64,000 nt of DNA from Lingula anatina (taxonomy: Eukaryota > Animalia > Brachiopoda). Made by a program: the position numbers and the translations under genes. The stretch spans positions 21,660,534 through 21,724,533 of the forward strand of contig CM120644.1 of NCBI GenBank assembly GCA_051362555.1. Direction: 5' to 3'. Within the stretch, counting starts at the first letter, position 1. Each line of letters opens with the position of its first letter. This document shows, in pieces, positions 274 through 29,615 of the stretch. Below the pieces are notes generated by a model, which was given only the letters and a program-made list of their open reading frames with translations, was not told the origin of the DNA and made no database searches.

Positions 274-1010
274 AAATATAAAAAATTGTGGGGCAGGTTG
301 GGACAGTTTTTCCAACAACTGACGGACCCTCCGTTTCTCTTCTCACACTGCACCCACTTTGCTTAAACTGCACCCAGGTAAAAATCAGGTCTAAGAAAGC
401 CAGGGAGAACAAGTCTCTTCACACAAATGGATTTTTAATTGCAGAGCAGGCAACATAAAAATTCAATGAAAACAACAATTGGAAAAAAGAAATCAAAGAT
501 ATGAATTAGCATTGGTTGAAGCCACTTAGCAGTAATTGAAAATGAGTAGACAGAACAACGCCAAACAAAATAATGAATATACAAGAAAAAGCTGCAATTG
601 TACATTGCCAGACAAGTGTCCTCCACCAGGGGAATGTGACCCTGAATGTGAAGGCCATATATAAATACACTGTCGGTCATCACTAATGGCACTTTAATCC
701 CTGCGAATTTTTGATCAATGGCGATGAACAGCATACCGTCAGGCAATGCATCAATTTTGGCCTTTGAAAGAGAGAAATCTTCAAAATTTGTGATTCTTCA
801 TAAGAGCAAATAATTTGGAGAAGGTATCTTTATTTTCTATTTGTTTTTTGCATGGACAAGTTGCGCAAGTTGTGTAAAGAATTGTGTTTAGAACATGTGT
901 CCACATAGGGTTTGTAAATATGAATCCAAATGTTCATTGACATATATAAAGAAGTGTTAAATGAGAAATGTCACTTTATTGTTTAGACTGGATTGACATT
1001 CTGTGTCAAG

Positions 1011-1073
1011 TGTCAGTGAAACTACAAGCATAACCATTCAATATTAACATTATTCAAATGTATGCACCTACTG
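1011..1073 (+). mobile_element. RTE-clade LINE AP-endonuclease fragment (decayed)
   Basis: Translates VSVKLQA*PFNINIIQMYAPT, matching the IQxYAPT motif of RTE-type endonucleases; contains an in-frame stop. Confidence 0.7.
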
Positions 1074-1184
1074 TACTGGTAGTGCGCAGTTATATGTTTT
1101 ATGCAGAGAGCAATGCCTCCAATGACCTTGACACTGACTGAACTCCATATGACCTAATGGATAAGACGGCTTGATGGCTGTGCC

Positions 1185-1330
1185 TTTAAAGAGGCGCAAA
1201 TTGGAATGCTGTATGTTGTATTCAACAACAACTTTATGTTCTCATTACTAGTAAAAGGAAAGTCAAGTACCTTGTTACAATTCACTGTCAAGCTCACCGT
1301 TTGTAATTAGGGATGGTTGTCTCATTAAAG
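1185..1330 (+). mobile_element. hAT (ZNF862-like) transposase fragment
   Basis: Translates RGANWNAV...KYLVTIHCQAHRL*LG, containing the hAT CxxH motif (IHCxAHRLEL type). Confidence 0.7.
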
Positions 1331-2164
1331 ACCACTATTACAGAATTAGTGCTTCTCTATGGACACTACCACCAGAGTCCTAAAGCTTGGAACTGAAAGC
1401 AATGAGAAAAATATTGGAGGAAAACCCCACCAAACTGACCTAGGACAGTTGAAGACATTTTAGCAAGAGGTGGCACACCAGAAGTGCCTTCAACAGGTTG
1501 TTCAGAAGACAGTTTACTGACCATGTTGACGCTTGCTATGAAAATATTTGATTCTCCGCCTACTGACTGAATAGTTTTGATTATCATTGTTTTGCACAAA
1601 TGTGTGTTGATAACAAAAATATAAATATATTTGTGTTTTCAAACTATGTATACAAGAGATAATTATTAGCAAGGGGAATTTCCAGTCAGAACAACATGCA
1701 CCTCTATATCAGATGCATCAAACTAAAATTACATCTTAAATTTATACACTGAACTCTTTGTCACATGAAAGGGAGATGGGGGCAACTTCCTTCCAAAAGG
1801 GCCAAGCCAGCTTTGCTGCACAAAGACAATCACTGGATTCCAAACATGATGGACGAGGCCAGATAGAGGTATGCCAAAACTTGGAGAATTGAGGTATATA
1901 AATCATTAAAAGCACTTAATAATAAAATGTATAAAGCTAATTTTAAAATATGGAATATTACATACCTTACAGCTTAACCATTTACTTAGGCAATTTTGAA
2001 AATTTTGAACCTGTAACAATAAATTATCTGATTCCGATAAATATAATTAAGAATGGTAGACAAGTTGAAAAAATAACATGTAAGACATATTACAGTAGTC
2101 CTATTTTTTTTTTTAAATCTGAAAAATTGATCACATATTTCAAGAAATATTGAAATATCTTTCA

Positions 2165-3260
2165 GATTAGATATCTGGCAGCGTATACGATTGACAACAT
2201 CGGTGCCAAAGTCAGAAGAGTAATAAAAGAAACTGTAGCCCACGATATGCAGTTGTTATACCATGTGTTACAATATCGAAAACCAGTTGTACCATTACTA
2301 TGGTACAATACACCAAATTAAATATGACTTTCTGACCGATATTTCAGAATGTGATTCAGCATGTTTTTACAGTGAGAGATAAAATGTTATTTTCTGAATA
2401 TTTTATCTTTATTTCTATTTACAGAGGCAGTTAGGTTGCATCATTCAAACAATGTCTCTGAAGACATTTTTAGATCTTATGTTAAAAATTTTCTGAACAG
2501 ATCACAAGACAGGAATGGCGGAAGAAGGAAAAGAGCTGTGAAAGATCTAATTTAAATTATTTGGCTAATTATTAAAGGAGTTCTTACCAATATAGATCAG
2601 GCTAATATACCTGTTGGAATTTTAATTATTTAATTTATTTAATTATATGTTTGTAAACATTGTAACAGGATAAGGAAGATTCTTAATTTATTACCTCATG
2701 TTAGGGGGTTAGTGCTCTCAGAGCAATGTCTGCATGTACTTGCAGAGAGTTTGGCATGTGTCAGGGATATTGTTATTTACAAGGTGCCTTTTTCATGGGT
2801 ATTTTTTATGATGTTTTGCTTTGCTGCATTGTTAAACTTTGCATTCTATTTGTACTTGTATTATGAACATTATATGTTGCTGTTACTTTCTATTTTAATC
2901 TATTATTCATCAGCTGGTAACATTTGAAGCTGCATTCAGCATGTTTTATGCAGGTGTTGCTTTTATCTTTTTAATGTTTTTATATGTTTTTAAAACTTTG
3001 CATTTTTTTCTTGTACATTAGAGGTATTATTCTTATATTCTATTTTATGTATTAATTGGCAAGTTATTTTTGAAACTGCATTCTATATGGATATTGCATT
3101 TGAGGAGTGGCCCTTAATTTGTTACATGTATGTTGCCAGCAAGGTTATATAATGTGTAATAATTTTGTTTAGTTTTGTAGCACAGAATAAATACTTGAAT
3201 CTTGTATGTCTTTTTTTATAGTAATCTTATTGAATAATTAAAATGTATTATTATTTAACA

Positions 3261-3302
<42 letters not shown>

Positions 3303-3377
3303 CCATATGTGGTCCACATCCAGCCCTAATCTGGCCTCTTTGATATTGATCTGGCCCACATCTGGCATGCCATAGTG
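2165..3377 (+). mobile_element. 3' part of a CACTA/EnSpm-like element with DUF4806-like accessory ORF exons
   Basis: Exon-like piece after TACAG at ~2425 reads EAVRLHHSNNVSEDIFRSYVKNFLNRSQDRNGGRRKRA (DRxGGR C-terminal motif). AATAAA at ~3186, ATCTGGC-type subterminal repeats at 3296-3367, and terminus ...CCATAGTG (CACTA on the - strand) at 3377. Confidence 0.5.
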
Positions 3378-4123
3378 ATAATGAACTTAGAAAATGAGTT
3401 CTTATTGCAGAGAAAAGGAGCGGCCAAGGGCAAAAAAATGGCCCCTCAGTATGTTAACTAATTTATGATCAACTTACAAAAGTCTGTCCTTAACAAAGCC
3501 CTGAAAAAGCCTCTATTCTATTGATGACATCTTCTTACTATGAACACAGGGAGAATCAGACCTTAAAGAATTTGCAGAACTTTGAAGAAAACCCTTGATT
3601 CGCTTTACTCTCAACTTCTCTAACCAAAAACAAAACCATTTGGCTACCACGGTCTCCATAAATACCAATAGACTGGCAACATGCATATATATATAGAAAA
3701 TCCACAGATCACTGACCTTACCCACATAACAATAGTTTCCATCCTTTGCATATAAAAAAATCTATTGTATATCATCATACTTCAAGATATTATCATCATG
3801 CAGGTGAATTTATATGCATGATAATATCACAGAATCAACTTGGAACCCAAAGCATCAGTTCACTCATAGAGTGCTGATCTAAGAGCAGATCACAATTCCC
3901 AAATGGTGCCACAATAGGAATGTGTGGAAAGGATTCTGGTGTGGTTTCTCTCTGACTTCAAGAAAGTGCACATGCAGTGCAACAACATGACAATAGAAAG
4001 TGTTCCAAACATGCCTAGCACCCAGGAATAGTCATGGACTGGGACCTAGAATTGCCTTATGATATTTTTTGTAGTGTCATTCCGATTGCTTTACAGAGTA
4101 ACACATGGTGTACCTCCTAAACA

Positions 4124-4951: not shown

Positions 4952-5188
4952 TATCTTCTTAAAATTATCAACAGAAAATGACCCCACTATTTCATGGCCA
5001 TTTTCTTACCATGTTATACACATTCACTGCACAAAATATTATTGATATTTGTTATACATTTGTGTTAATTCAACTTGTTGCAGAATTTACAGTTGCGTGT
5101 TACATTAATAAAGAGAAAAGTGTCCTTCCAAGTGAGTTGTCTCAGATTCCTTCGTACCTCAGCTGGTACCTTGGGAAACAATAAGCAT

Positions 5189-6596
5189 TGTAACGTCCCG
5201 TCCCCCTACTGTAATTGTTTCTGTCATTGTAAGAAACTTTAATCTTAAGATGACAAAACTACCGCTACAATGCATTGATGATGCATGGAAGCTGCCATAT
5301 TTGCCACTTCATGCTGACCTATGCCGCACGCGTAACTCGTGCTCCGCACGACTGCTGACGTTGCCGCGTCAGAGTATAAATAGAGGAGCGCTCTGACGGG
5401 AGCGCTCTGTCTGGCTGTCTATTCCAAGGTACCGGTAGAAGACAGAGAAGAACCCAAAACAGATTTCAAAGAAGAATCATCAGTGAGTGTTAGGGCAGCC
5501 CTTAGGGGCTAGCCCGCTTCTTTTTTTTTTTTTTTTAGGGGGGATCCTGATAAGGGATTTAAATGTTTAGTAGATTTAACGGTATATTATAACTGCATTT
5601 ATTCCTTTGCTAGATTAACTAGAAGCTTTAATAAAATTTTATTCCCAGGTAGCCCCAGTATTCATTACTAACTGTAATAGTTTATACAGAGTCCGATTAT
5701 GGACACAGACTAGTTAAGTTTGTTATTGTTACTGCAGTTGTTTTATTGACAGAAGTAAGTATTTAAGTTCGTTACACAGCCGTCAATTCTTTGACAGCAG
5801 TGAGCAGTTAAAGCTAAGCATAGGGTAGTTTTTATTATTTTTATTATCTTATTTTCGCTTATTTTCCTTTCTAACCATTCCATGTGGTCATTTAAGGACC
5901 ATGTCATTTCAGTCATAGTTAAAAGTCATGTTGTTTTCCGAGAAAATGTCAGTCATTCCATGTTGTCATCTAATGACCGCGTCAATTCAATCATTGTTAG
6001 GTCAGGTTGTCTTTTAGGGACATCATGTTGTCTTCAGGGACAACGTTCGTCAGTCATTCCGTGTTGTCATCTAATGACCACATCATTTCAGTCATAGTTA
6101 AGTTAGGTTGTCTTTTAGGGACAACGTCATGGGGGGGGGGGGGGATTACCAGTGTTTAGCACAGTGCATATTGGAAGAGTTACTCTCTGTGTGCACACCG
6201 ACAGCTGACTTGAATTTCCCTAGTGACTGCGGCCTTGCGATGTGGTATGAACTCCCTACCATGAGGACATCTTGAAGAGAGAATTACAGAACGGACAGCA
6301 CCACAGAGATGATGTCGTCGCGCGCAACATTTGAAATTTATGAACTTTAATGACCATAAGTCTTGTCAAAGGATACTTGGAAATGCATGAACTATTGTGG
6401 CCATAAGTCACGTTTATATTGCATGAATTTTCATATTCAATGTTTGAAGATTTCATAATCATATTGGAAATGTAATACATGTCTTTTTATTTCTGAAGGT
6501 TGGGGATAAACTTTCCCCAAGGTACAGGTAACATCAATCCCACACCGCGTCGGGGTGTCGTCGCCAACTCGAGGTGGACGGCCGCGTCGCATTGCA
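5189..6596 (+). mobile_element. TGT..ACA-bounded LTR-like element, copy A (internally deleted)
   Basis: Starts TGTAACG; TATAAATAG at ~5375; AATAAA at ~5630; CGTTACA at 5770-5776; ends CATTGCA (degenerate CGTTACA). Flanks GCAT/GTAT are a possible 4-bp TSD. Collinear with 16636-18867. Confidence 0.7.
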
Positions 6597-7645: not shown

Positions 7646-8406
7646 GATGCAATAGAAAATCACACATTTTTCAGCTCTTAATGCACAATTTTGATAATAA
7701 ATATAATCAATTTAAAAAATAAATAAATTATTTCATAGTATGTTGATGGGAATTACATGTAAAAATAATGTAAATTTTGATTTCAATCTAATACATCAAA
7801 ACTAAAATCTAATGTACATATGTAACTCAAAGTCACATGCAAATTAAAGATAGCAGCAACGTTTTCCAGAGGCAACCAAATGTGACAGCAACAAATAAAT
7901 TTAATCTTCTCAGAGACTATAAAGGTAAAAAGTGTACTTTTAATAAGCCTGGAAAGAGTTTCACTAGTTTCAGATCTGTTTATTGTTTGTTAATTATCAC
8001 AAACAAGATGCTAAATGATATATAATGACAATCAAGCTAGATGGGCCTTCTATCAGGGACTCAATCCAGACCTTGCCACTGACAGATGAATGGTAATATA
8101 TGGCTGTTGGATAGAGATAATTAGAATTAATGTTGACTCCTTCTCGCATTATGGAATGACCAAAACCCAAACTGGAAGTTGCCGTTTTTACCCAGCATGC
8201 AGAGCATAAGCAATTCCTGTTACCACGTACGTTTCAAAATAACTGGACAAGCCCTATCAAAACTATAATTGACTGAAAGAGAATGCCCCACGTTGCTGTT
8301 ATGCAATGCACATGTTATAGCCAAACACAACAGGTGAAATTGTTTTCTAACTAACGCTAATTGCATAGGAAATGAAAGTAGAAATCACTGTTGCATTGTT
8401 TTTCAG

Positions 8407-8722
8407 GTCCATTAATCTTGTGTGCCATCTGTGGCCTGTATTAGAGTCTGGGGACATGCCCTCTGGAAACATCTTAGGTGATTCGGCCTATGTTCTGAGG
8501 TCTTGGCTCATGACACCCAAAATACAGTCGGGTAGAAGAGAAAAGGAAGAAAAGATGTGGGGAGAAGAGGAAAAGGCATGCTGAAGAAAACGGGAGAGCA
8601 GAAATGTGAGTAATTACACTGTTCAATACAGCCCATAAGAAGACACGAATTCTCACCAAGTGCCCTTTTAGGGGTCCTAAAGAACTGTTTCAGTTGAATG
8701 GTTAATTTTAATTTGTTAGTTA

Positions 8723-8773
<51 letters not shown>

Positions 8774-9180
8774 AATTTAGTATTACACATTTCTTTCCTT
8801 GTGTGAAATTTATTTCAAGTAAAGTAATAACAATTACACTGTCATTCCTAGTATTATTACTCTTACGCACAGTTGCTATTATCATAATTAATGTCATTTT
8901 TCATAAAAAGGAAAAAAAAAAAAAAAAAAAAACAATCTGCCCTCAACAAAACTTTATTTTTTAATGCTTTCAGGTGCCTTCACAAGTCAGGAGGGTGCCT
9001 GATATATTCCCCAGAGGCCAGTGCCAACATCATTCTGGCATGTTGCAAGCTACACAATTTTTGGATCAGGGAAGGGATGCCTGATGTTGAGGTGGAGGCT
9101 TGTGTTCAAGAGTGTCAAGATGTGCATCTGGGAGAGTACCCAGCTGATGGGGTACAGTGTAGAGAGTGTCTCATTGCTAT
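8407..9180 (+). mobile_element. PIF/Harbinger (HARBI1-like) DDE nuclease, C-terminal half, decayed and intron-containing
   Basis: Motifs LGDSAYVLRSWLMTP, FNTAHKKTR and RCLHKSGGCLIYSPEASANIILACCKLHNF. Confidence 0.88.
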
Positions 9181-9182
9181 AG

Positions 9183-9442
9183 TACAATACACCAAATTAA
9201 ATGACTTTCTGACCAATATTTCAGAATGTGATTCAGCATATTTTTACAGTGAGAGATAAAATGTTATTTTCTGAATATTTTTTCTTTATTTCTATTTACA
9301 GAGGCAGTTAGGTCGCATCATTCAAACAATGTCTCTGAAGACATTTTTAGATCTTATGTAAAAAATTTTCTGAATGGATCACAAGACAGGAGGAAGGAAA
9401 AGAGCCGTGAAAGATCTAATTTAAATTATTTGGCTAATTATT
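9183..9442 (+). repeat. Second copy of segment 2303-2573 (DUF4806-like exon and flanks)
   Basis: Near-identical TACAATACACCAAATTAAAT...GGCTAATTATT at both positions. Confidence 0.92.
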
Positions 9443-9454
9443 CTATCTTCATTA

Positions 9455-9575
9455 TTGGATTAACATCAGATGGCACTAGCAACATGACTGGAAATGGAAA
9501 GGGGTAATGTTGCCCTATTCAAAAAGGACCACTCTCAAAAGTTACCATGGCATTGTCCTGCCCAACATCTCAAGC
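9455..9575 (+). mobile_element. hAT transposase fragment (catalytic DG motif)
   Basis: Reads ITSDGTSNMTG, then WHCPAQHLKLG in a shifted frame. Confidence 0.6.
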
Positions 9576-9577
9576 TG

Positions 9578-10474
9578 GGCTGGCTTTCACAAAATGTTAC
9601 GCAATTTGCATACTCACTATAGTTTGCGCACTTGCGTTAATTTTTTTTTTTGAATAACTTTCACGAAACCATTTGCAATTTTCTTCGCTAAGAGCGCACA
9701 ATGTCGTGACAGGAAGAAACATTGTAATCTCGAAACCCAACTCCTTCGGCAGCAAAGGCAAGAAATATAACAACAAATGCTTGTCCTCCATTGCGCTCCG
9801 TGTCCATGTGTACAGTTATCGCAATGAAGGAGCTGACAGGGTTTCCAAAGAAGAGGAGTCATTTTTTCCGACAAAGAAATAGATATTTTCACAAATATGT
9901 AATGTTTTATTCCTAAAAACTGGGGAAAGTTTACATAAAAAATTAAATAAATTACTGTGATTTATATAGATATATATTGTTATATTCTTTTTTATCAGGA
10001 TCAACAGTGTCTCCCTAAATATATGGAAATTTTCAGAGGTGAGAAAGAAATGGTACGACTATTCCAGTTGTACAAAAAGGAAGGAGGCAGAGAGAAGAAG
10101 AAAGGAGATGAGGAGGACTGGGGGAGGTCCAAAACCTCCACAGCTCACAGCTAGGGAGCAAAAAGTAAGTTTATAAAAATATAGTTCAAATTATTATTTT
10201 AAAAAAATTGTGTCCTGTGTCTATTATTATTATAAAAAATTATTTACGAAACTAATATATTTAATATATTTTGTCCAGGTCATAGAGATCATTGGTGATG
10301 TGGCCGTAGAGGGTGTAAGAAGGCTGGAGCAGAATGACTCTTTCTGCTTTGAATGTGGTACTTCTGGTTATGATTTACTTGATTTATATTCATTCATTGA
10401 ACTATTATTTTGAAAAAAAAAGGGGGGGGAGGGGACTTTGCACAATTTGCAAAATGTTTCGTGAAAGCGGGGCC
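9578..10474 (+). mobile_element. Non-autonomous Harbinger element carrying a Myb/SANT-like ORF2 remnant
   Basis: Imperfect TIRs GGCTGGCTTTCACAAAA / TTTCGTGAAAGCGGGGCC and a CTG TSD. The spliced fragment VRKKWYDYSSCTKRKEAERRRKEMRRTGGGPKPPQLTAREQK|VIEIIGDVAVEGV (GT-AG intron ~10165-10278) is typical of Harbinger Myb_DNA-bind_5 proteins. Confidence 0.8.
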
Positions 10475-15799: not shown

Positions 15800-16110
15800 A
15801 GGCTCTTAAAAACGCATGATTTCCTTTGCCAAATTCACCAAGAAAAAGAAGAACCATAGCTGTAAAACTTGCGACAAAAACTGCACTTGTATCACCAAAG
15901 TCCTCAATAACAGTTGGGAACCCTTGCACTGACCAGAGAGTGAAGAAAGAAGTGTTAGACTTTTACTGTAGGGATGAAACCTCTTGGCGGGTTCCTGGGT
16001 GTAAAGACGGATATTATTTGTAGAAGTGATAGAAATGGAGAAAAGAAGATGACAGACTTGCAAACTCGATATATGCTTACCTCGCTTTCTGAAGCATATG
16101 AAAATTATTG
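15800..16110 (+). mobile_element. DNA transposon transposase N-terminal fragment (Sola-like, tentative)
   Basis: LPNSPRKRRTIAVKLA...VLDFYCRDETSWRVPGCKD...LQTRYMLTSLSEAY resembles an FYxRDxxSxxxPGxKD motif I recall from invertebrate transposases; the superfamily is uncertain. Confidence 0.45.
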
Positions 16111-16635
16111 TAAGACAGTTGCTACTGACAAAAAAGAAAAAAAAAAACTACAGTACCCTGTTTTGCAACAAAGAATTGTTTGTCTTGTACATTTTAATGC
16201 AATGTGTTACACATCGCCGCCATGGACGACGTGCTGCATCATGTGTGGCCAATGACGTGGCTCACGCGTGGAGGCCATGATGCTCTCTGCATCTTTTGAT
16301 GCTGTAGTTTTGTTTTGTTTGATGTTCCGTGAGCTGGTTTATTCTGTTATGAAGTGTAATTCACAATATTTGACGTTCTTGTAGCTTCTTAATTCTCTAC
16401 TACTATGTTATTACTTATTAATGTTATTACTTCTCTTCATTCAATAACCCTATAAATAGAACTCTGTTTCACTCATCTTCTTTATGTAAGTGCATGATAA
16501 AAGGCTAGTCAGAGTCTGAGTGTACACAGGGAACTAACAGTAACTGTTCTTCTTTTCATTAGACCACAGCACATCCACAGGGTGCTCTGGAAGCCTTATT
16601 TCTATTCTTAATTTTATTTCCAAGAATAAATTTAG

Positions 16636-18867
16636 TGTAACGTCTCCCCCCCCTTCTGTTTTGCATTCCAATACAACATCTTCACCTTATCCCTTCAGAA
16701 ATTCACTTTGGAAGGGTATGTTAGCGGTTAAGTACCTGCCCTCCACTTTTACTTGATTCCCCCTACTACAATTATTTCCGTCAATTGTAAGAAACTTTAC
16801 TCTAAAGATGACAAAACTACAGTGCATCGACAATGCATGGAAGCCGCCATATATGCCACTTCATGTTGACCTATGCCGTACGCAAAGCTCTTGCTTTGCG
16901 CGACTGATGACATCGCCGCGTCAGAGTATAAATAGAGTGGCGCGCTGTATGAAAAAAAAAAAAAACGTTTTCACAGATTGGAGTACAGAGAGAGTGTTTT
17001 CACAGATTGGAGTACAGAGAGAGCGTTTTTCACAGATTCAAGTACAGACTAAGACCAGACTTAGAAGAGAGTTATCAGTAAGCCTTAGGGCAGCCCCTAG
17101 GGGCTAGCCCGCTCTGTTTTTCTTCTCATTTTTAGGGGGGTCTTATTAAAGAGATTTAAATGTTTGGTAGATTGAACTATAGATTATAACTGCATTTGTT
17201 CCATTGCTAGATTGACGTAGAAGTTTTACGGAAACCTTATTCCCATGTAGCCCCAGTTTTCAATACTAACTAGAACAGTTTATACTGAGTCCGATTATGG
17301 ACACAGACTAGTTAAGTTTGTTATAGCTACTGCAGTTGTTTTATTGACAGCAGTAAGTATTGAAGTTCGTTATTTTCACAGCCATCAATTCCTTGACAGC
17401 AGTGAGTAGTTAAGGTAAAACATGGGCAGTTTTAATTTATCATTTCATTTTCGCTTATTTTCTTAATTTCTAATCATTCCATGTTGTCATAAAAAAAAGC
17501 CGGCCAGGTCCGGGACGCCATAGTAGAGCGGACGTCCACTTGGGTCTGATGCCGAGTTCCAGCCCAAGAGTGTTCCTCCAGTGTGAAGGGAGTCGAGTTA
17601 CCCCGTGTGAAGGGGCAGATTTTGCTTTTGTTCTTTTAGTTCAGTATGTCCATCCGGAGGAGTAGAGTGGATGCCAGCTGACTGTGACCTTAGAAACGGA
17701 GACGTGGTGAAGATTGTCCAACCCCTGCCAAGGGACGCAAGGCCATAGCGGGCCGATCCCTTACAGTGCTTCCCTGCGAACCCCCGTCCCCACCCATGCG
17801 AGTACGGAGATTTCACACGGAACAGACGGTGCCCAGGGAGTGGAAAATGTGGGCTTCTGATATGTGAAGATTAACCTTGCTCTTTCCGTGCCAATGATCA
17901 CTGGTCCCGAGTCAAAGGGTTTCATCGCCGCCAAGATCTCCACCGATTGGTTTGAAGGCCGCGGCGATCCCCTGCGCCCTCGTCACTGGTGACCGGAAAG
18001 ATTGTCAGTATTGAGTTGGTTTCACTTGACCTGCACCCTTGCGTATTTCTGGTAGAGAGAATCGCCGTATCCACATCAGAGCTGGTGAAGCTGGAATGGG
18101 GCTGTCGGGAGAGGGTGCACACCGAGAGCTGACTTGGATTCCCCTAGCGACTGCGGCCGTGCGATGCGGTATGAACTCCCTACCATGAGGCCAACATCTT
18201 GAAGAGAGAATTACAAAACGGAGAGCACCACGGAGATGAGTGACACTAAGAAAATAATGTGTTTAAGCCCGTCGGCGGTTAGTGCTGAGATCATTTCTTG
18301 ACCAATTCACTATAAGCCGTCGGGTTTGTCGCCAGCCACGACGCTACCTTAAGATTGACTACGTACGATAATCCATATGAGAAGACACGCGATCTACCGG
18401 AAACGCTGGGCTACCCATAGGAAGACTACGCAAGCCACAACGCTACCATAAGATGACTACATACGATAATCCATATGAGAAGGTACACGATCTACCGGAA
18501 CCGCTGCACTACACATAAGAAGACTACACGAGCCACGACACTACCAGAAATGTCTTCGTTGTCTTCGTTTTACTACCCAGATGCTGTCGGCGTGCGCAAC
18601 ATTTGAAATTTCTGAACTTTAATGACCATAAGTCACGTCAAAGGATACTTGGAAATGCATGAACTATTGTGGCCATAAGTCACGTTTATATTGCATGAAT
18701 TTTTGTATTCAATATTTGGAGATTTAATAATCATATTGGAAATGTGATACATGTCTTTTTATTTCCGAAGGTTGGGGATAGACTTTCCCCAAAATACAGG
18801 TAACATCAATCCCACACCGCGTCGGGGTGTCATCGCGATTCGAGGCGAACGGACGCGTCGCGTTACA
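16636..18867 (+). mobile_element. TGT..ACA-bounded LTR-like element, copy B (longer)
   Basis: TGTAACG ... CGTTACA termini, TATAAATAG at ~16927, a GC-rich internal block at 17495-18230 and a ~99-bp imperfect tandem repeat at ~18334-18545. It interrupts a sequence that is intact at 25976-26199. Confidence 0.75.
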
Positions 18868-19659: not shown

Positions 19660-20993
19660 CAGTCTTCGACGTTAAGCGGTGGACCATGGACCGAGTCCAC
19701 TAAATTTTCCGTCGGTCCAGTAAATATTGAAATTTAAGTGGACCGACGGTCCAGCTAAAATATTGAGAGATGCATGGGTTGCGTTGAGCAAAATTTAGAG
19801 CACATAAAATCAAATAAAAATTGTGTTATCTTCGCGAATATATAGTCTAAAGGGTTGTGATAACGCGAGCCATAACCAAAATAAAATGAGTGTGGCAGAT
19901 GAGCCCAAACACAATGGTTGTGTGCAATGTGAGCTTTGAGAATTCTGATTGGTCAATTATATTGGGTCATCCAATCACGGTCTTGAAAGTGTGAACCACG
20001 AGGTTTTACGAAATGGCGTTCCTGAAGCATTTTGCAAAACCCAGAGTAAAAAGAAAAGTGTTAGATCTATAAAGTCAAGAGTACGAACGAAAAAGGATAG
20101 GGAAGTTTCAAAGTTCGTGGCAGCACAGTTTTTCCTGGCTTGTGTATGACACCGAGGCTAACACCATGCATTGTAAAATCTGCCGAAGTCTGAAAAATGA
20201 TTCTGGTGGGGATTCCCCCTTTATCGCGGGAACGTCAAATTTTAAGATAGATGTTGTTAGGCTACATGCAGCATGTAAACAACACCAGCGGAATTCTGAA
20301 CTTATCGCAGCAAAATCTACGCCCATTTCCCAGAGTGTAGCGGCAGACTGCCTGGGGAAACTGAAGTTTGAGTTTCAATTTGTTTAAGACATTTTGTAAA
20401 CTGGACACGGCCAAAGGCCTTGATGTTGGCACTTCTAACACCACTGACAAGTCCGCTGCACAATTTGTGTCTGCTATCGCAAATGTGGAAAGGAGAAGGG
20501 TAATTCAGAAGATTGAATCATGCAAATTTTTGAGCTTAACTATGGATGTGATATTCTGGGAGGTTTGTCACTTTATGTGTTTTTTTACTTAAATTAAATC
20601 AAGACATTGCTGTTATAATAAAATGTTATTGCTGTGTGAATACTTATGAAATGTTTTCAAATAAAATTATCAAAATTTAATAGTCACTTTTTATTAAGTA
20701 AGGTTATGTATTATTTCTTTTTTTATTCTGTATTATTATCATTTATTTAATTATTTATTTATTTATAATTAAATTATTGCCAATTTCATTTACTATAAAC
20801 ATCTCATCTTTTTTTAGAATAAATAAATAAATAAATAAATAAATTTGGTACAAAAACATCAGCCTTATTTATTATTTTCTTTTAAACCAAAAATTATTAG
20901 AATTGGTCCAGTAAAAGTTGGTTCGGTCCAGTAGGAATTGCAGTCTTGGTGGACCAAATGTCCACTAATTAAAAAATTTATTCGTGAAGACTG
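19660..20993 (+). mobile_element. hAT deletion derivative with ZNF862-like zinc finger
   Basis: TIRs CAGTCTTC(G)ACG / CGTGAAGACTG, GGTCCA subterminal repeats and a flanking CTTTAC duplication. Internal WQHSFSWLVYDTEANTMHCKICR...FIAGTSNFKIDVVRLHAACKQH and FCKLDTAKGLDVG...FLSLTMD. Confidence 0.88.
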
Positions 20994-21599: not shown

Positions 21600-23612
21600 T
21601 TCGTATACTTTATGCTAGAAACAGAGACTGTAATACCCTACAAACACATCTAACAGAAGTGTCACAGAAGCACCAAATTATTTGACACCAAAGCTTTTCC
21701 ACTTGGTCATTCAATCTGGAACTGTAGCTTTAGCTGAGGCCCATGAGACTTACATAAATAGGGATATTAAAAAGACTATTAATTGTCCTTCAGAATATGT
21801 TTTTTTCTAAGTTAGTTTACTATTTACCATATTAGGCTAGGGCACTGAAAAACTTGTATTTACTTCCAAAGAGTAAAAAAATATGAACTGCCATATAAGC
21901 AAAATACAGTTAAGTTACAGTGTGAAGAAAACACTAGGCATTATATAAGGTTCATTGAATCCAATCAGTGTTCTCTCTTTAATGTAGATGTAGATAGGTT
22001 AGGTGTAGAGGAGTGTTGATGAACACACTTGCACACAGGAAAAGGTCAATGAAAACCAAAGGCAGGATTTACTTAATTTCTTGGACTTCAACATTGATGA
22101 ATTTAACAAGTTTGTAAAATACACAAGAATCCTCAGCAGTATAATCCACCTAGACAGAGAAGAGGAATTTTCGAAGAGAAGTATTTGACTTTGACAGCTA
22201 TAGTGACTCTGAACTGCGTGCAAGGTTTTGTTTTGGCAAAGAAGGTATTAATTTGATAGAGAGAATGTTGGAAGAGGATCTGCAGCCTGCGACTGGCAGG
22301 AGCTGTTCTCTCTCATTGAGGGAACAAGTTCTCATTTTTTAGTGTTTTTAATGCCTGTGGCTCATATCTTCAAGTGGTTGGTGATACTATTGGTGTCGAC
22401 AAGAGCACAGTGTGCAGGGTTGTAAGAAAAGTGTCATTGGCCCTGTGCAGAAGAAAAGATCAATTCATTCAGTTCCCGATAGATCCTTGGGAGAAGGCCA
22501 CGATCCGGGGTGGCTTTTTTAGGACTGCCAGATTCCCTTGGGTCATCGGCTGTATGGACGGTACTCACATTAACTTGGGCCTGCATTCGTCAACAGAAAG
22601 AATTAGATCTACCACAGTATGAACGTTCAAGCTATATGTGACCACAAAGGTATTGATCTTTATTACATAATCAAAGCTTAAATATTATGAGCTCACCGTA
22701 AATAACACGTCCAACAAGTAGGCCCCTATTGACTGCAAAGTAAATAAAGACTAACATGATGGAATTAAGTGCTTTTAAGTAAATTTTATTTTCAACACCT
22801 TATCATATTCTATCTCATAAATATCCCCTGTTAAGCAAAAAAGAAATCAAAGAAGTGCATGTGGTATTTGATAAGCCAGGTGATGTAAATAATTTTTATC
22901 CTGAACATGGAGAGAGAGACAGATAGGGGTTCAGTAGTGTTAAACATAGATGAAATTACACATACAACTTCTCTTCATTATGTCTGGCATGATTTTCTAA
23001 AGAATAGGTCCAATAAAAGTAAATAATTAAATTATTTAGGCACAAATTTACTGCAGACTCACAGTGAACAGGAATACTTAGATAAAAATGCCAGACTAAG
23101 GCTGCTTAGATGGCATGTGTAAGATAGCTGTTCATGGAGGTATTATAGACAATCCTTCATTTAGTTCCAATCACAAAAGAGGGAGACAGTTTAGTATGGT
23201 TACAAAGTTTTGAAGATAATGTTATTATCCTTTCACCAGATATTGATGTCTTAGCAATAGGACTAATTACGTTTGTTTGATAGAAGAGAGTACAGAAATA
23301 AGCACATTTTGATTTAAGTAGGGCTGAAACCTTATGAGGGGATATTTATGTCGATGTAAAAAGTTGCATTATTGTATATGTACTGACCCTAATTTAGGCA
23401 GTTTAGATATGGAAAAGGTTGGTAAAATCATGCAGGTTTTATTTATTTCCTCAGGTTGTGATTTTGTTTCATTCTTCAGAGGATTTGGTAAGAAAAGGTT
23501 CTATACCACTTCCTATAGGTATGCAGACTTCATATCAGGAATGAGTGCCAAGAGATCTCTTAACCAAGTAGGCATAGGAGATTTTAAAAGTGGGCTTCAA
23601 ACATTTCTCTAA
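21600..23612 (+). mobile_element. Decayed 'HEEGD'-family large-ORF element, copy 2 (split by a Harbinger fragment)
   Basis: Pieces VALAEAHETYINRDIK, NQRQDLLNF (~22054), EVHVVFDKPG, SSNHK..DSLVWLQ, IILSPDIDVLAIGL and LFISSGCDFVSFFRGFGKK; paralogous to 11030-13975. Confidence 0.7.
22200..22650 (+). mobile_element. Harbinger (HARBI1-like) nuclease N-terminal half
   Basis: GSYLQVVGDTIGVDKSTVCRVVRKVSLAL...FPWVIGCMDGTHI...MNVQAICDHK, followed by a GT donor. Confidence 0.9.
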
Positions 23613-24584
23613 TATTTGTCTCAACAAGTGAAATAAGAGAATTAAAACAGGCTGTTTGGAAAAATACTAGAAAGATGTGAACCCAGTCCCAAACACACAC
23701 AAGACATACTTTGTGAAGGCTAATGTCCCACACAGCGTAATAGTAGGTGATGTTTCCGAAGGTGAGGTATTTAATGAGGTAGTCATCAGGTGTGACTCTG
23801 ACTCTTATACCTGTAGTTCCTCAGATACTGAAACAAGTGATAGCTCCTCAGAGAGTGAAGCAAATGCTAGTTCCTCAGAGAGTGAAGCCATGCAGTGATG
23901 ATGTTAATGATGGCCTTACATGTGGTACAGAAAATGTAGTACTAGGTAGTATCAAAGTCATTAAGCAGCATCATGCCTGTCATGAAGCAGCCATGGAAAA
24001 GTTCAGATCATACATTTCCAAACGTCACTATAGAATTGTGGGCGTTATGTTAAAATGCAATTTCTGCAAAGAAATCTAATTTCTAACACTTTTAAATGAC
24101 CACGCTTTCTAGCCAGTGAGCGCATTGCTACAAGGTTTGTTTTCTGTGGCCCTCTTACATTGATAGGAACAGAGCCTATTACTATTGAAGATTTTTCTGC
24201 TGTGGAAAAGGCCATCTCTGTTGTTAAGAAATATGTGAACAAGAAGTAATTTAACCTTTATTAGGTATTATTTGTTCAAGTTTTCCACCATATACTTTGC
24301 AGAAAGGAAAAATTTACCTCTTTATGAAAAAATGATTGTTTGTATACTAATTAGTTAGTTGATCATTCTGTTCAACTAAATAAAGTTGTTTTAAAATCTC
24401 CTTTTTTTGGTGAATCTTGAAATTCCAATACATATGTGAAAATAAGTTCTAAATTATATTTAATACAAAGCCTAAAGTTTTGAACATAACCAACTTTTTA
24501 CATCATTTTTCGATAATTTACATCATTACTTTCACAGATTATGTCCGTTACTTATGTCCGTTACCATCACCCAGCAATCAACAT

Positions 24585-24720
24585 CACTTAAAGCTGGTAA
24601 AAACGGAAAGGAAATACAGATTGCATCCCCAAACACTGAATGATCTTCTGACCATTAAACTGGAAGGACCAACTGTTGCTAAATTTGACCCAATGAGAGC
24701 AATGAAAATGTGGTGGGTAA
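24585..24720 (+). mobile_element. hAT C-terminal dimerisation region fragment
   Basis: LKLVKTERKYRLHPQTLNDLLTIKLEGPTVAKFDPMRAMKMWW (ZNF862-like ending). Confidence 0.75.
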
Positions 24721-25559
24721 GTAAACAAGCAGTTTAAACTAGAAGATGAGAGAGGCGATACCACCTCCGGGTATCGTACCACCAGCTGGAGGAAGCGCAT
24801 TCGTATGTAAAGGCAAAAAAAGGACACCACCTCTAGTGTTGTGCTTGACAAAATCTACAAAATATTTTTAATTGAAAATTAAAATTTAAAACAAAATCAT
24901 GGGGAAGAGTAAAAGTTTAAATTCAAATTTGTGAAGTGCCATTCATGGCGAAAAGAAGGTCAAAGGTCAATTTTAATACCACAGATTGTCAGTATATGAC
25001 TTCTTATTCAAGTTCAGTAGTAACTATGGGCATATCTATGCCAGTTTTAAAGGTATAAGCATCAAAAAAGTTGCAAAATTCAGTTCTTAGTGAAAAGTAG
25101 GTCTATGATGGGGTGTAGAAATGCCATGGGGGTTCAGCTGAAAAAAAATTAACCCCTACTTACTACAATTTCAAGCTTGCACTGTGTACAGAAAAAGCTG
25201 CTTCTAAGTTAGTAATGCAAAAATATTTGAGTTTAGACTTATTTTATATTTAATTTCATTGCATTATTTCATTTCTAAAAGTATTCTTTTTACTATTTTT
25301 GATGTATAAATTGTAAAGTGATTGGTTGCAATTTGCCCAGTGCCCTGCCACATTTTTTTTTTTATCAAAATCAAAACAAAACTGATTTAAACTAAACAAA
25401 ACAGATTTAAGATCTTATAAGTCATTATTAATATATTAAAACTGTTTGTTTGAAATTCAGAAGTAATTATTGTCCTCAGTATTATTTCCAATGTTTACCT
25501 AAGTATTAATGAATTTGTGTTGACAAAGCTTCATTTTTTTCACATTATTTTAATTGAAG

Positions 25560-26320
25560 GTGACATTCATACCCAGTTACAAAGACACATTGACTTTCAT
25601 CTATTATTACTTCAAGATGTCATTGGTGCGTTGTGACAAGCTGCAGGAAATCCAAACAATACGAGATGCCCCACAATTAAAAGTCAAAGAGAACCACCAA
25701 GTGAGACGGTTTGCCTTTTATAAAAGCTATGACTCAGTACTCATTTATTGGACTGACATTATTTTGATGTCTATTATTCCTTTAAGTAACTGACCTTAGT
25801 TTAAAGTTCCAGAAGGAGGATTTGAATGTTGCAATGATTGGACCAAGTGTCAGAAATGCGATTCACCAACTTGCTGTGACATATGAATGTACAGACGTAT
25901 TGGAAAACCTGGACAGTAAAATTACAAAAGATGACGATGGGCATTTCACTTTGAAAGACATAGCAATTTACAACAAAAGGCTAGTCAGAGTCTGAGTGTA
26001 CACGGGGAACTAACAGTAACTGTTCTCCTTTTCATTAGAGCACAGCACATCCACATGGTGCTCTGGAAGCCTTATTTCTATTCTTATTTTTATTTCCAAG
26101 AATAAATTTATCTTAAAAATACCACCTGTTGTTCTATCCCGCTTACATTATTAGATGTGTAAATGTCTATTCTGAAGACTCTAAAGGGTTATGCCAATCT
26201 CCTTCAAAAAATTGTACCTTGATCAACAGGTAAAACAGTTCAAGTAGGGAGCAAAACATTTGTTGACGAACTTAAAGCTTTAGAGGAACGCTTCCCAATA
26301 GAAACACAATCAGAATCAAA
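25560..26320 (+). mobile_element. hAT (ZNF862-like) transposase mid-region fragments
   Basis: YKDTLTFIYYYFKMSLVRCDKLQEIQ...KVKENHQVRR, DLSLKFQKEDLNV and FVDELKALEERFP; split by the 25976-26199 segment. Confidence 0.7.
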
Positions 26321-28111
26321 GAAACTGAAACTGAAATGGATGTCATAATAAACAATACAGCTGTATATTATTTAGCTGACCAGTTTACCCATTAAGTTGT
26401 TCCAGTGACCAGACTGATGAATTAATGCAATATTTCACAAAAATTTTCAGTCACTACAAACACTCATAAAAATCTAATACACTGGGGTTTCCCCCCTTTC
26501 TTTAAAAACCAGAGCCAAGCTGCTATTAGTACAGGTGTTTGATATTTCAAAATAAATGAATCAGTGAATGACATAAACCATGTAAGTTCTTTCTAGAAAT
26601 TTCGCATGTCTTTGGAAACTTACAACCCTTTTCTTTAAAATTGTTCCTGCAGTTTTAGTAGCATAGTTAAAGAATTTTTTGTTAAGACCTAGTCATTGTA
26701 TAATGCACCTGTATCTAATCAATCATTAATAATAAAAATTACAATGGTCCTAGTGTAAGATTAAAAACAATCGTAAAGGGGTTCGATACATTATGAACAC
26801 ATTTGGCTAAATAGATTTCTCCCATGGTTCATCCATATAAAATGACTTGATATAAAGACAATAAAAAAAACCTATAAAAGTAAAAACTACTTTGTTGTTT
26901 TCTTCAAAACCTCACATGTTCTGCACATTGAGTGGCCAAGCTTATGTAGTCAGTTTAACTGCTCTGTAAATAAGTGACTGGTCTACTATGTAATTCTGTA
27001 TCTAAGTAAGATATCACCATAAAGATTAGCATGGCAGGCAATGGAGGTGTCAACTACAACTCAGTGCCATCTCTTTTAGTTTGTTTGTTTCAGAGATATG
27101 AACCCAAAATTATGAAGTTCCATTAAAAAGACAATTAATACATTTTTGATGATAAGTTCAGAAGCCTTTCAAGAAAATTTTCTGGCAATTGTAGTATCTA
27201 CTGTAGTTATTGAATAGTTACTGAATAGGCATTAAACCAATGCTGATAGCTCTTCAAGTTCAAGTGAGGAAAATGCAGGCAAAATCAATATATAATTGTT
27301 CACCCTAAAAACATTGCTGTTATGTCATTAGTTCTAACTGGCAAACTTACCTTGAAGTATTTAACACCTGTAGCATTTATATATCTCATAACATGACAGT
27401 GTTTATTTCTACAGATAAAAAATACAAATGTATCGACCCCCTTTAGTAACACACCTTGAACTTCTCTGAGGAAAATTTGTTAAATATCTGTTTTTTGTGC
27501 AAAATCTTACACTAGGCACCTCTAATAAATTACAGACTTTGGCTTCCTGATGCTGACTTGTAGTAACACTTGTTGTTATTATGGAGAAGACAATATACCA
27601 ATGTTCAGGGAGATCTGTGAGAAATTCGAGATCCTCAAGATATGCTGACATGAAGCAAAAGTCGATAATTTATTATATATAATTCATTACCTGAATGTCA
27701 ATGTCCTCCAAGATGGCATCAAAAGTTGCAACACTGCTGCCGAGCCAACATGACATGTCCTGACAAGTTCAAGATGTACTTCCTTTGTGGGGGGCTACTG
27801 AAACTGCTGACACTGGCACTATCAAAAGCCTGAACAAAAAATAGTAATTAACAATAATTACTACCATCCACATCTCTGATGATAGGTCTTTCAATCACCA
27901 AAGTTTCAACTTCTCACTCTTACTGTGTATGAGTTAGCAAAAATTACACTATGAAAAGAACTTAGAATCATCTACACACCCTCCCCCCCCCCCTAAAAAA
28001 AAAAAAAAAGACAACATTCTTAAATCATCTCAACAACTATGATAGTACTTTTCCTCAGTTTTTATGCCTCTTTAATATCACTTTGCTGTAATAATAAAGT
28101 ACAGATGGGAA

Positions 28112-28361
28112 ACTAGAAAAGCACTCAGAGAGTGCAGACTTCTGCCAAGGCAGCAAAGTCTCCATCCAATGCTGTTTTGCAATATTTTTATTACTGTCTG
28201 ATTGATTATTGATCACCACCAAAACTAATCATCTGTTCCTTGGCCCACTTCTGACAGTTCCTGAAAATTTCATCGAAATCCGTCCGTAACTTTCTGAGTT
28301 ATGTTGATGACAAAAAAACAAACAAACAGGGGTGAAAACATAACCTCCTTGGCGGAGGTAA
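28112..28361 (+). mobile_element. Helentron-associated non-autonomous element (HINE/DINE-1-like)
   Basis: Starts ACTAGA, has subterminal IR CTGCCAAGG / CCTTGGCGG, an (AAAC)n tract and a terminal hairpin ACCTCC-TTGGC-GGAGGT. Confidence 0.75.
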
Positions 28362-28976
28362 CTATTTTCCAGTCATCCTTCCACACAGGCAAAACAGAGG
28401 TATAAAGTTAAAACTCACTTAAAATTAAGTCACTTTGTCAACTGGAGTGAACTGCCTTTGTCATTCTTATAAATATCTATGGTGAATAACGCACTTTACA
28501 CACTTTTTTGCCTTTGCAAGTCCAATTTTTGGTTAACATGCACAGCTACTGAAGCTGGTGGTATATGTATAGACATATACAGAATGAAAATGTGTTAGTT
28601 GAGATATTCTGGTTGCGTGTGGGTGAGAACTAGTAATGCTGAGCACTGGGTGACAGTAGAGCCATATCTACCCTAGGTTCTAGATTTTCTTGTGTAAGAG
28701 GATGATTTTTGTTGAATTATCAATGATTAATGGATCATCCCCATTTTAAAAATAAAAATATTATGAATGTGTGGGAATATATCTATTCTTGTATGAAATG
28801 AGCAAAAAATTCCTGAGGATATTGATGAATGCAAAGAGCTTGATTTATTTTAGTGAAAACAAACCAAGACTTCATCCACTTTTTTCCAAGTTGATCCAAA
28901 GTACTCAAATTTTCAATTCAGCAATAACCTCAAGTAAAATGAAAACACTACTAATAGTATTGGTATAACCAGTATT

Positions 28977-28978
<2 letters not shown>

Positions 28979-29029
<51 letters not shown>

Positions 29030-29036
29030 CGCGTGT
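28979..29036. repeat. (GT)n(GC)n microsatellite
   Basis: Direct dinucleotide run. Confidence 0.95.
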
Positions 29037-29534
29037 GAATGGATACAGATGCACTACAGACAATTTAAAAGTAAGTTAACTTTCCCAGATTTGACAGGAC
29101 ACCTTGTTGAATGCTGTCTGGAACTAGATCAGATTCTATGACATGTAGCCTGCCCTTGCTATTGACTGTGGTAGATAGCCCTAGTGCTGGTAGATGAATT
29201 CATAATCACTTCATTGTATTATGATGGCAATAATGTTCCTATTATGCACTCAAACCATTCAAGTAAACCCCTTGATTATTAAACCACATCAACATTCAGA
29301 GCGGGAAAAACGACTTACCCATCAACCCCCAGTACTTGGAAGCTGCACGATCACCGTCTCGTCCATCTTGGCTTTTTTATCTTGTGTATCACTTCCCTCC
29401 ACCTCTCTATCGTTTCTTCAAAATATATCAGCCATAGTTTGAACTACCCTCCACTTCAACTGTCACTCTTTCTCTTTTTTCCGAGATGCAGATAGCATCT
29501 CGCTTCGCTTTCTCCTCCATTTGTTCTTCGTTTA

Positions 29535-29615
29535 CCGCCATACTTGTTATGCAAATGAGTAAACGTCATCCGTTTGGCGGGCTTTTGCCTTGGGGCGGAA
29601 GAGGGGGGGGGGGAG
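29535..29615 (-). promoter_or_regulatory. CpG-rich Pol II promoter
   Basis: YY1-like CCGCCATAC at ~29535, octamer ATGCAAAT at 29549-29556, half-CRE ACGTCA at 29563, E2F-like TTTGGCGG at 29573 and GC box GGGGCGG at 29593, clustered in an AT-rich background. Confidence 0.6.

What the first reader, a model, noticed from the sequence alone, without database searches (positions are those of the whole stretch)
1000..29615. Candidate uni-strand (flamenco-like) piRNA cluster: ~25 kb of TE fragments all antisense to one promoter
Seen: every TE coding remnant I could assign between 1 and 26.4 kb is on the + strand. These are the RTE endonuclease, five hAT pieces, two DUF4806-like pieces, three Harbinger nuclease pieces, Harbinger Myb, two PIN-like elements, a Sola-like piece and an SGNH esterase. 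They come from unrelated superfamilies, including DNA transposons that normally insert in either orientation, and no host gene was recognised in the region. A CpG-rich promoter at ~29.55 kb has a strong minus-strand donor (29319) and stop-filled exons, pointing into the region. Established: uni-strand piRNA clusters such as Drosophila flamenco are single-promoter, spliced Pol II transcripts packed with antisense TE fragments. Inference: this is a TE-trap/immune-memory locus. Caveats: the fragments are not all independent insertions; the unassigned minus-strand ORFs at 17761-18122 may be an exception; and antisense bias also arises in long introns of ordinary genes.
Basis: partly seen in the sequence, partly recalled or inferred. 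Interest (0 to 1): 0.88.

Follow-up and report, generated by a model that had tools for sequence, protein, structure and literature searches.

The report
One-way transposon archive in a brachiopod
A 26-kb stretch of a lamp-shell (brachiopod) genome is packed with broken pieces of many unrelated jumping genes that all face one way, and one RNA sample shows faint reads likely from the opposite strand, so it is likely a source of transposon-silencing small RNAs (piRNAs) of the kind known from slugs, although those small RNAs were not tested.

Summary
Observation confirmed; interpretation likely but unproven, and of a known kind. The window is likely Lingula anatina (98% protein match). In 1-26.4 kb all 18 orientable transposon insertions I could assign lie on + (11 with tool support, 7 by motif only): hAT, XPG-bearing Academ-like, Harbinger, SGNH, Penelope-like, RTE, DUF4806-like, Sola-like, two LTR-like ends. 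None was found on minus; two minus ORFs stay unassigned. The pile lies in a CpG-depleted domain starting at the 29.3-kb donor, behind stop-filled minus-strand exons. One of four RNA runs gave about 42 single-orientation reads over 23.2-28.9 kb (minus if dUTP), unspliced; the promoter, 1-21 kb and small RNAs were not tested. Best reading: uni-strand piRNA cluster as in slugs (0.62), possibly read through from a decayed gene. Main rival: long intron or lncRNA with antisense bias (0.28); the three transposon remnants right of 30 kb are also opposite to their neighbouring genes. Not flamenco-like in the strict sense: DNA-transposon-dominated, not Gypsy. This scan noted the same layout in other genomes (8 notes). 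No brachiopod piRNA cluster turned up in three paper searches.

The parts
29319..29600 (-). Putative promoter and first exon: GC-box-like and ATGCAAAT motifs at 29.55-29.6 kb, three short ATG-started frames that all stop before the donor at 29319
   Evidence: Sequence; donor score 9.5; coding-like 15.7 bits at 29328-29591; start site not tested
27351..27829 (-). Decayed exon-like pieces 27691-27829 (139 nt, stops in both readings) and 27351-27408 (58 nt, best minus donor of the window); gene unidentified
   Evidence: no Pfam hit for 27691-27792; reads in run X1 cover them and the introns alike, no joints
23151..28950 (-). Stretch with low-level single-orientation RNA in run X1 (minus if the library is dUTP-type)
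   Evidence: depth in 15 of 26 non-repeat bins, all first mate on +
25557..26400 (+). hAT (C17orf113-like) transposase middle part; 25975-26199 is duplicated at 16499-16634 and 18952-19047
   Evidence: 73 and 35 bits; duplicate 96% and 93%
24538..24730 (+). hAT C-terminal dimerisation region, with its splice sites
   Evidence: 52 bits; exon 24538-24716
21770..23900 (+). XPG/PIN-bearing DNA transposon remnant B (Academ-like, label recalled), interrupted by a Harbinger piece
   Evidence: 30 and 111 bits; relatives carry DUF6589, CXC/TCR, OTU; profile vs EXO1 E 0.11
22154..22650 (+). Harbinger (HARBI1-like) nuclease N-terminal half
   Evidence: Motif by eye (GCMDGTHI; NVQAICDH); searches blank
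   Evidence: 19.5 and 18.8 bits
21001..21255 (+). SGNH esterase remnant (LINE ORF1 type, inferred)
   Evidence: PDB 1fxw E 0.07, 4c1b ORF1 protein E 1.8; Lipase_GDSL_2 E 0.23
19660..20993 (+). Young internally deleted hAT element, TIR CAGTCTTC..GAAGACTG, 6-bp target duplication
   Evidence: zf-C17orf113 E 6e-10; P0001 96-97% over 192 aa, 21 aa missing here; ends and CpG o/e 0.84
16636..18867 (+). LTR-like unit TGTAACG..CGTTACA with TATA box on + and a PBS-like motif after it (motif recalled); holds the unassigned minus ORFs 17764-18143
   Evidence: ORFs without family
15800..16120 (+). Sola-like transposase piece (motif and label recalled)
   Evidence: Translation; coding scan 17.8 bits; no Pfam hit
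15300..15571 (+). Harbinger nuclease C-terminal end
   Evidence: Motif by eye; no family hit
14700..14965 (+). hAT C-terminal piece
   Evidence: 15.3 bits
11060..14100 (+). XPG/PIN-bearing remnant A, split by a 1.5-kb non-coding TIR element with TA ends (12215-13714, orientation not assignable)
   Evidence: 42 and 51 bits; 28-nt TIR; CpG o/e 1.01 in the insert
8369..10350 (+). Harbinger nuclease pieces (8369-9200) and Myb/SANT exons (9999-10164 on), counted as one element
   Evidence: DDE_Tnp_4 E 0.017 and 0.14 at collinear profile positions; open exon; Myb label by motif
9172..9442 (+). Second copy of the DUF4806-like 3' exons
   Evidence: 92.5% to 2293-2573
5189..6595 (+). Solo-LTR-like copy of the 16.6-kb unit, flanked by gcat/gtat
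3387..3850 (+). Penelope-like reverse transcriptase remnant
   Evidence: Best non-self hit of the window's own Penelope ORF, 4.9 bits vs decoy 2.1; 53 vs 46 frameshift-aware; weak
1450..3296 (+). DUF4806-like transposon gene remnant with introns, AT-rich tail, AATAAA and an A35 run
   Evidence: Motif by eye (translations printed; label recalled); no Pfam hit
1190..1400 (+). hAT piece (IHCQAHRL)
   Evidence: 8.9 bits vs decoy 3.6
1000..1140 (+). RTE-type endonuclease piece (motif recalled)
   Evidence: Translation; no PDB hit
438..797 (-). Unassigned minus-strand ORF, possible exception or host exon
   Evidence: 14.2 bits, within null range; no homologue, no relevant family

Best explanation
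Window 1-26.4 kb is a dense pile of transposon pieces all facing +, and it is likely a uni-strand piRNA cluster, read as a long minus-strand RNA that likely starts near 29.55 kb. Shown: strand polarity over at least eight unrelated families, nesting of young elements into old ones, a CpG-depleted domain from 29.25 kb to the left edge, stop-filled exons behind the donor, single-orientation reads in one run. Inferred: the RNA is minus-strand (library type assumed), is made in gonad or stem-like cells (long-term germline methylation would explain the CpG loss), runs past the decayed exons into the pile, and is cut by PIWI/Zucchini into 1U phased piRNAs antisense to hAT, Harbinger, Academ-like, LINE, Penelope and LTR transcripts. 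Insertions land at random; antisense ones would be kept or tolerated and sense ones lost, and later deletions would whittle them to coding scraps.
For: 252 of 252 tblastn HSPs and 14 of 14 profile domains on +; family-blind scan 11 vs 4 segments; three separate copies of the hAT C-terminus and two of the XPG region show independent insertions. About 18 insertions in 26 kb against 3 coding remnants in the 34 kb to the right. CpG o/e 0.23-0.45 in the old matrix, 0.81-1.01 in four end-intact inserts, so insertion continued after the domain formed. Run X1: depth in 15 of 26 non-repeat bins, all one orientation, about 42 reads, several start points. Brachiopods are among the phyla with PIWI1 and PIWI2 (PMC11114477, passages). 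Slug clusters: minus-strand piRNAs over densely packed plus-strand transposon fragments (PMC11615739); snail clusters enriched for Gypsy, Kolobok, hAT5, hATw (PMC6128900).
Against: No small-RNA data. RNA is faint (roughly 0.5 FPKM by my arithmetic), seen in 1 of 4 runs, absent in X1 at 21.38-23.15 kb, with no splice joints at the candidate exons; strand convention of X1 was not calibrated on a known gene. AATAAA is not depleted on minus (47 vs 42 on + in 1-29.3 kb), so premature ends are available to a long transcript. All 3 transposon coding remnants right of 30 kb are also opposite to the neighbouring + genes, so antisense bias is not special to this stretch. The intact Penelope ORF on the right also has CpG o/e 0.29, so low CpG can be a property of transposon coding DNA. 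Protein libraries were seeded from + pieces; minus-strand remnants of other families could be missed. The left end of the domain is outside the window.
Confidence: 0.62

Rival explanations
1. Long intron (or lncRNA/pseudogene body) of a minus-strand Pol II unit: sense insertions are purged because their splice and poly(A) signals disturb the transcript; no piRNAs of note are made.
For: Gene-body-type CpG depletion reaches the left edge (background PMC8330077, passages). Faint unspliced reads in poly(A) libraries are what an intron gives. Intronic antisense bias is known for LINEs and LTRs in mammals (PMC3088655, passages). 3 of 3 remnants right of 30 kb are opposite to host genes. An unassigned minus ORF sits at 438-797.
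Against: Density and diversity far exceed the window's real introns; no exception among 18; the mammalian study excluded DNA transposons, which dominate here. Exon 1 has three ATG frames that stop before the donor, and the next exons are broken. No chain of strong open minus exons in 1-26 kb (2 short ones). AATAAA is not avoided on minus, unlike the + host gene region (20 vs 35, p=0.058), which argues against poly(A)-signal purging as the cause of the bias. Candidate exons had no reads in 3 of 4 runs.
Confidence: 0.28
2. Untranscribed transposon graveyard whose polarity comes from local duplication, nested insertion preference or my ascertainment.
For: Two local direct duplications (2293/9172; 16499+18952/25975) and two copies of one LTR-like unit reduce independence. 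Libraries seeded from + pieces. No RNA data for 1-21 kb.
Against: At least eight unrelated families; 10 of 10 gives p=0.001; single-orientation RNA over 23-29 kb including transposon pieces; sharp CpG boundary at the donor.
Confidence: 0.1

Closest known systems
Uni-stranded piRNA clusters of slugs (Arion vulgaris, PMC11615739, 12 of 26 passages; Deroceras laeve, PMC12506671, 6 of 6 passages)
   Same: Lophotrochozoan; densely packed transposon fragments on one strand, opposite to the inferred transcript.
   Different: Those were defined by small-RNA mapping; here no small RNA. Different phylum.
piC-DoG clusters downstream of genes, e.g. non-coding Zim2 (PMC11615739)
   Same: A gene promoter with spliced 5' exons followed by a TE-antisense pile.
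   Different: Described in mammals with intact or annotated host genes and mostly retroelements; here the exons are broken, the gene unidentified, and read-through past 23 kb not shown.
Lymnaea and Crassostrea piRNA clusters (PMC6128900, 4 of 4 passages)
   Same: Enrichment for DNA transposons such as hAT subgroups and for young elements.
   Different: The passages read say nothing on strand polarity of the insertions.
Drosophila flamenco and flam-like clusters (PMC10643416, 12 of 27 passages)
   Same: Single-strand arrangement of transposon fragments opposite to an inferred Pol II transcript.
   Different: Bias there is driven by Gypsy LTR elements, flam-syntenic loci are 227-1,085 kb and follicle-cell expressed; here mostly cut-and-paste transposase scraps, 26 kb seen, tissue unknown.

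Membership tests
Uni-strand TE-silencing piRNA cluster | Dense transposon fragments with strong one-strand orientation | tested here: met
   18 of 18 assigned insertions on +, 7 of them by motif only
Uni-strand TE-silencing piRNA cluster | Long precursor transcribed from the opposite strand only | tested here: inconclusive
Uni-strand TE-silencing piRNA cluster | 24-32 nt 1U, phased, 2'-O-methylated small RNAs mapping uniquely to one strand | not testable with these tools
   The 9 runs listed are all RNA-Seq of long RNA
Uni-strand TE-silencing piRNA cluster | Defined Pol II start site and spliced 5' end | tested here: inconclusive
   Donors at 29319 and 27350 by score; no joints in 21.4-28.95 kb at depth 1-10; start site outside the laid stretch
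Uni-strand TE-silencing piRNA cluster | Organism has PIWI pathway | not tested
   No genome held; PMC11114477 passages report PIWI1 and PIWI2 in each lophotrochozoan phylum examined
flamenco / flam-like cluster (strict) | Strand bias driven by Gypsy LTR elements | tested here: not met
   2 LTR-like units among 18 insertions; no gag/pol remnant recognised; hAT, Harbinger and Academ-like dominate
flamenco / flam-like cluster (strict) | Expression in ovarian somatic follicle cells | not testable with these tools
   Tissue of the runs is not given
piC-DoG (cluster downstream of a gene) | Upstream gene promoter and exons in the same orientation as the precursor | tested here: inconclusive
   Exon-like pieces at 29319-29600, 27691-27829, 27351-27408; gene not identified
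piC-DoG (cluster downstream of a gene) | Read-through from the exons into the pile | tested here: inconclusive
   Same-orientation reads at 26.2-28.95, 25.4-25.9 and 23.2-24.2 kb with gaps
Intron of a protein-coding gene | Open coding exons spliced across the region | tested here: inconclusive
   None found inside the window; sequence left of position 1 not available
Academ DNA transposons (for the 'PIN-like' pieces) | Large protein with transposase, XPG-type nuclease and Cys-rich finger (definition recalled) | tested here: inconclusive
   Relatives of 1,256-1,740 aa carry DUF6589, shorter ones CXC/TCR; EXO1 match E 0.11; no passage defining Academ found

The most novel reading that the evidence does not exclude
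A brachiopod piRNA cluster born behind a gene that has since died: the promoter and first exons survive only to drive a read-through RNA across an antisense archive aimed mainly at cut-and-paste DNA transposons, and still capturing new elements. It would be the first piRNA cluster located in Brachiopoda and a non-mammalian, end-stage case of the 'cluster downstream of gene' route.
Probability: 0.3. Interest if true: 0.62.

Novelty: new member of a known kind. Interest (0 to 1): 0.46.

Why it matters
If true it gives a ready target for the first small-RNA test in a brachiopod, extends uni-strand TE-antisense clusters from molluscs to another lophotrochozoan phylum (the annelid Capitella showed no large cluster, PMC8915122, passages), and offers one locus where the birth of a cluster promoter from a decayed gene can be examined. 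It would not be a new kind of system.

Tried and rejected
Pfam on 300 stop-free ORFs of 42 aa or more in 1-30 kb (tandem array 4124-4952 left out) found one transposon domain above cut-off and one weak one; six frames of 19.5-27.2 kb with X at stops found one: too insensitive to prove absence on minus. Homologue searches for the minus ORF 573-797 and the Harbinger ORF 22320-22619 were blank, weak evidence by the tool's own note. PDB gave nothing relevant for the RTE and Harbinger pieces; NCBIfam nothing relevant for 12 ORFs; Rfam 0 matches. The protein Atlas gave no result. Run search: no RNA holder listed by index, nine raw-read runs by species label; four were laid, on 21,380-28,950 only. 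Reads at 24.7-25.1 and 28.1-28.36 kb run on into unlike sequence and were set aside as interspersed repeats (4 of 30 bins dropped before the count). Poly(A)-signal and splice-motif strand counts showed no significant skew in 1-29.3 kb. CpG-loss rates in duplicate pairs were too sparse on the left to compare. P0001 may be another copy or this locus in another individual; I do not count it as proof of an active family elsewhere. Paper searches for a brachiopod cluster: Lingula+piRNA (13 papers, 12 listed), six-term search (15 of 916 listed), brachiopod+piRNA clusters (6 of 6): listings only, none is about one. No supplements were read; cluster tables there could bear on the slug and snail comparisons.
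Full report
Organism and setting. No genome is held. The ORF at 20073-20384 matches a Lingula anatina protein at 98% (LOC112042031), so the window is likely from this brachiopod. Right of 30 kb lie ordinary + genes: a multi-exon coiled-coil gene (about 30.7-36.1 kb, by sequence) and three tandem sulfotransferase copies (Sulfotransfer_2 E 6e-46 for the first; 86-91% DNA identity among them).

Is the strand bias real? Pfam alone is too blunt: 300 stop-free ORFs gave zf-C17orf113 (20073-20384, +, E 6e-10) and a weak DDE_Tnp_4 (8369-8581, +, E 0.017). I therefore fetched relatives with one + reading frame of 23301-26900 (313 hits at E 0.001 or better, best 150 listed). They fall into hAT transposases (zf-C17orf113, DUF4371, Dimer_Tnp_hAT) and an XPG/PIN-bearing group whose long members carry DUF6589, with OTU in one and a CXC finger in shorter ones (24 of 150 scanned); its profile matches the helix-turn-helix motif of EXO1 weakly (E 0.11). 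I call this group Academ-like from memory; four look-ups found no passage to confirm it. Against the whole window, 252 of 252 tblastn HSPs are on +. Profiles over six frames gave 14 domains at 7 bits or more, all +, all left of 26 kb, against decoy maxima of 3.6 and 4.1 bits. Three separate pieces cover the same hAT C-terminal positions and two cover the same XPG region, so they are separate insertions. The library was seeded from + pieces, so I added tests that were not: the window's own minus-strand Penelope ORF finds its best non-self match on + at 3387-3530 (4.9 bits vs 2.1; weak), and a family-blind coding scan gives 11 segments on + and 4 on minus, three of which shadow + coding, with nulls at 0-6; the same scan recovers the right-half genes and the Penelope ORF on their true strands but misses the L1 piece. 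Two copies of an LTR-like unit (5189-6595, 16636-18867; TG..CA ends, TATA box on +, PBS-like motif after the second) also face +. Total: 18 insertions, 11 with some tool support, none on minus. Conservative binomials: 10 of 10, p=0.001 at 50:50 and 0.017 at a 2:1 prior; 16 of 16, 1.5e-5, 0.0015, and 0.028 at 4:1. Unassigned on minus: 17764-18143 (inside the + facing LTR-like unit) and 438-797 (no homologue).

Anatomy. The pile is nested: an Academ-like remnant is split by a 1.5-kb TIR element with TA ends, another by a Harbinger piece, a duplicated hAT piece by the LTR-like unit. Pieces keep their introns and splice sites (exons 9999-10164 and 24538-24716), so they are genomic insertions, not cDNAs. 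CpG o/e is 0.23-0.45 in the old matrix from position 1 to 29.25 kb, but 0.81-1.01 in the four inserts with intact ends, 0.80 at the promoter and 0.7-0.9 to the right. In invertebrates low CpG o/e reflects germline methylation, mostly of gene bodies (PMC8330077, 12 of 14 passages). Inference: one long-methylated, likely transcribed domain that kept taking insertions. Caveat: the intact Penelope ORF on the right is also at 0.29; the cleaner signal is 26.4-29.25 kb (0.23), where no transposon coding was recognised.

The 5' end. On minus, 29319-29600 holds GC-box-like motifs, three short ATG frames that stop before the donor, and scores as coding-like (15.7 bits). Further exon-like pieces lie at 27691-27829 and 27351-27408, the latter with the best minus donor of the window (12.2; 29319 scores 9.5, rank ten; recalled generic weights). 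They read like a decayed gene; I could not identify it, and it could itself be a transposon gene, which would be a sense-strand exception. No chain of strong open minus exons crosses 1-26 kb (two short ones).

RNA. Four of nine listed runs were laid on 21,380-28,950 (6-25% of each run read). Four of 30 bins overlap two interspersed repeats whose reads run on into other loci and were dropped. Of the other 26, run X1 (poly(A), stranded by its pattern) has depth in 15, all with first mate on +, which means minus-strand RNA in the usual dUTP protocol; 42 of its 169 reads lie fully on the stretch, with 3-6 start points at sampled sites, roughly 0.5 FPKM by my arithmetic. Coverage includes transposon pieces at 23.2-24.2 and 25.4-25.9 kb and the presumed introns, is zero at 21.38-23.15 kb, and shows no splice joints. 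X4 and X5 have 0 of 26, X7 2 of 26. So: faint, sample-restricted, single-orientation, unspliced RNA that fits a precursor and equally an intron. The start site and 1-21 kb remain untested, and no small-RNA run was listed.

Against the cluster reading. AATAAA is not avoided on minus (47 vs 42). The three transposon coding remnants right of 30 kb (L1-like 32621-33385, Penelope 43639-45612, Tc1-like 54096-54293 by eye) are all on minus, opposite to + genes, so ordinary antisense bias operates here; I read the right half less closely (ORFs of 57 aa or more only). Intronic antisense bias is documented for LINEs and LTRs in mammals, DNA transposons excluded (PMC3088655, 9 passages). What the intron reading does not explain well is the density, the absence of exceptions among DNA transposons, the broken 5' exons, and the lack of poly(A)-signal avoidance that the real + gene region tends to show (20 vs 35, p=0.058).

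Comparison. Slug clusters are predominantly uni-stranded and capture densely packed opposite-strand transposon fragments (PMC11615739; PMC12506671); snail clusters are enriched for Kolobok, hAT5 and hATw (PMC6128900). Mammalian piC-DoGs use promoters of coding or non-coding genes and read on into antisense piles. Flam-like loci differ by their Gypsy specificity and size (PMC10643416). PIWI1 and PIWI2 were found in each lophotrochozoan phylum examined (PMC11114477); Capitella showed no large cluster (PMC8915122); PMC12479628 (12 of 13 passages) added nothing on strand. Three searches listed no paper on a brachiopod cluster (listings only). The slug and piC-DoG papers were leads from earlier notes of this scan, which record the same layout in other genomes; none covers this genome.

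Verdict. Observation confirmed; likely a uni-strand piRNA cluster (0.62), rival long intron or lncRNA (0.28), passive pile (0.10). New member of a known kind; interest 0.46, resting on the phylum and on the decayed-gene promoter.

Noticed in passing
window 47378-48346, 56895-57863, 63223-64000 (+): Three tandem carbohydrate-sulfotransferase copies, each with duplicated upstream exons (41.0-43.2, 55.3-56.5, 59.2-61.7 kb); a tandem gene expansion.
   Followed up: partly
window 43398-45849 (-): Penelope-like element with a 658-aa open RT/GIY-YIG-type frame and 261-nt inverted end repeats at 99%, between exons of the first sulfotransferase copy; young, yet CpG o/e 0.29.
   Followed up: partly
window 32621-33385 (-): L1/Tx1-like RT C-terminal piece (zf-RVT E 2e-7) in an intron of the + coiled-coil gene.
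   Followed up: partly
window 30700-36100 (+): Multi-exon coiled-coil gene without a Pfam hit in the ORFs scanned, divergent from the 29.55-kb promoter; a shared bidirectional promoter region is possible.
   Followed up: no
window 54096-54293 (-): Tc1/mariner-like DDE motif remnant (LQHDNA..SPAMNP), label recalled.
   Followed up: no
window 24735-25090 and 28110-28361: Two short interspersed repeats, both starting AACTAGA on +, present in many other transcripts (loose ends); likely Helentron-type non-autonomous elements (recalled).
   Followed up: partly
window 17490-18115: GC-rich (about 55%) segment inside the LTR-like unit, replaced by unrelated repeats in the 5.2-kb copy; carries two protein-like minus ORFs of 73 aa with no family.
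   Followed up: partly
window 4124-4952, 38729-39092, 49192-49660: Minisatellites of 46 bp x 18, 56 bp x 6.5 and 29 bp x 16, at 95-98% matches.
   Followed up: no
window 35357-35548 / 36392-36593: Inverted 200-nt pair (81%) flanking the last exon of the coiled-coil gene.
   Followed up: no
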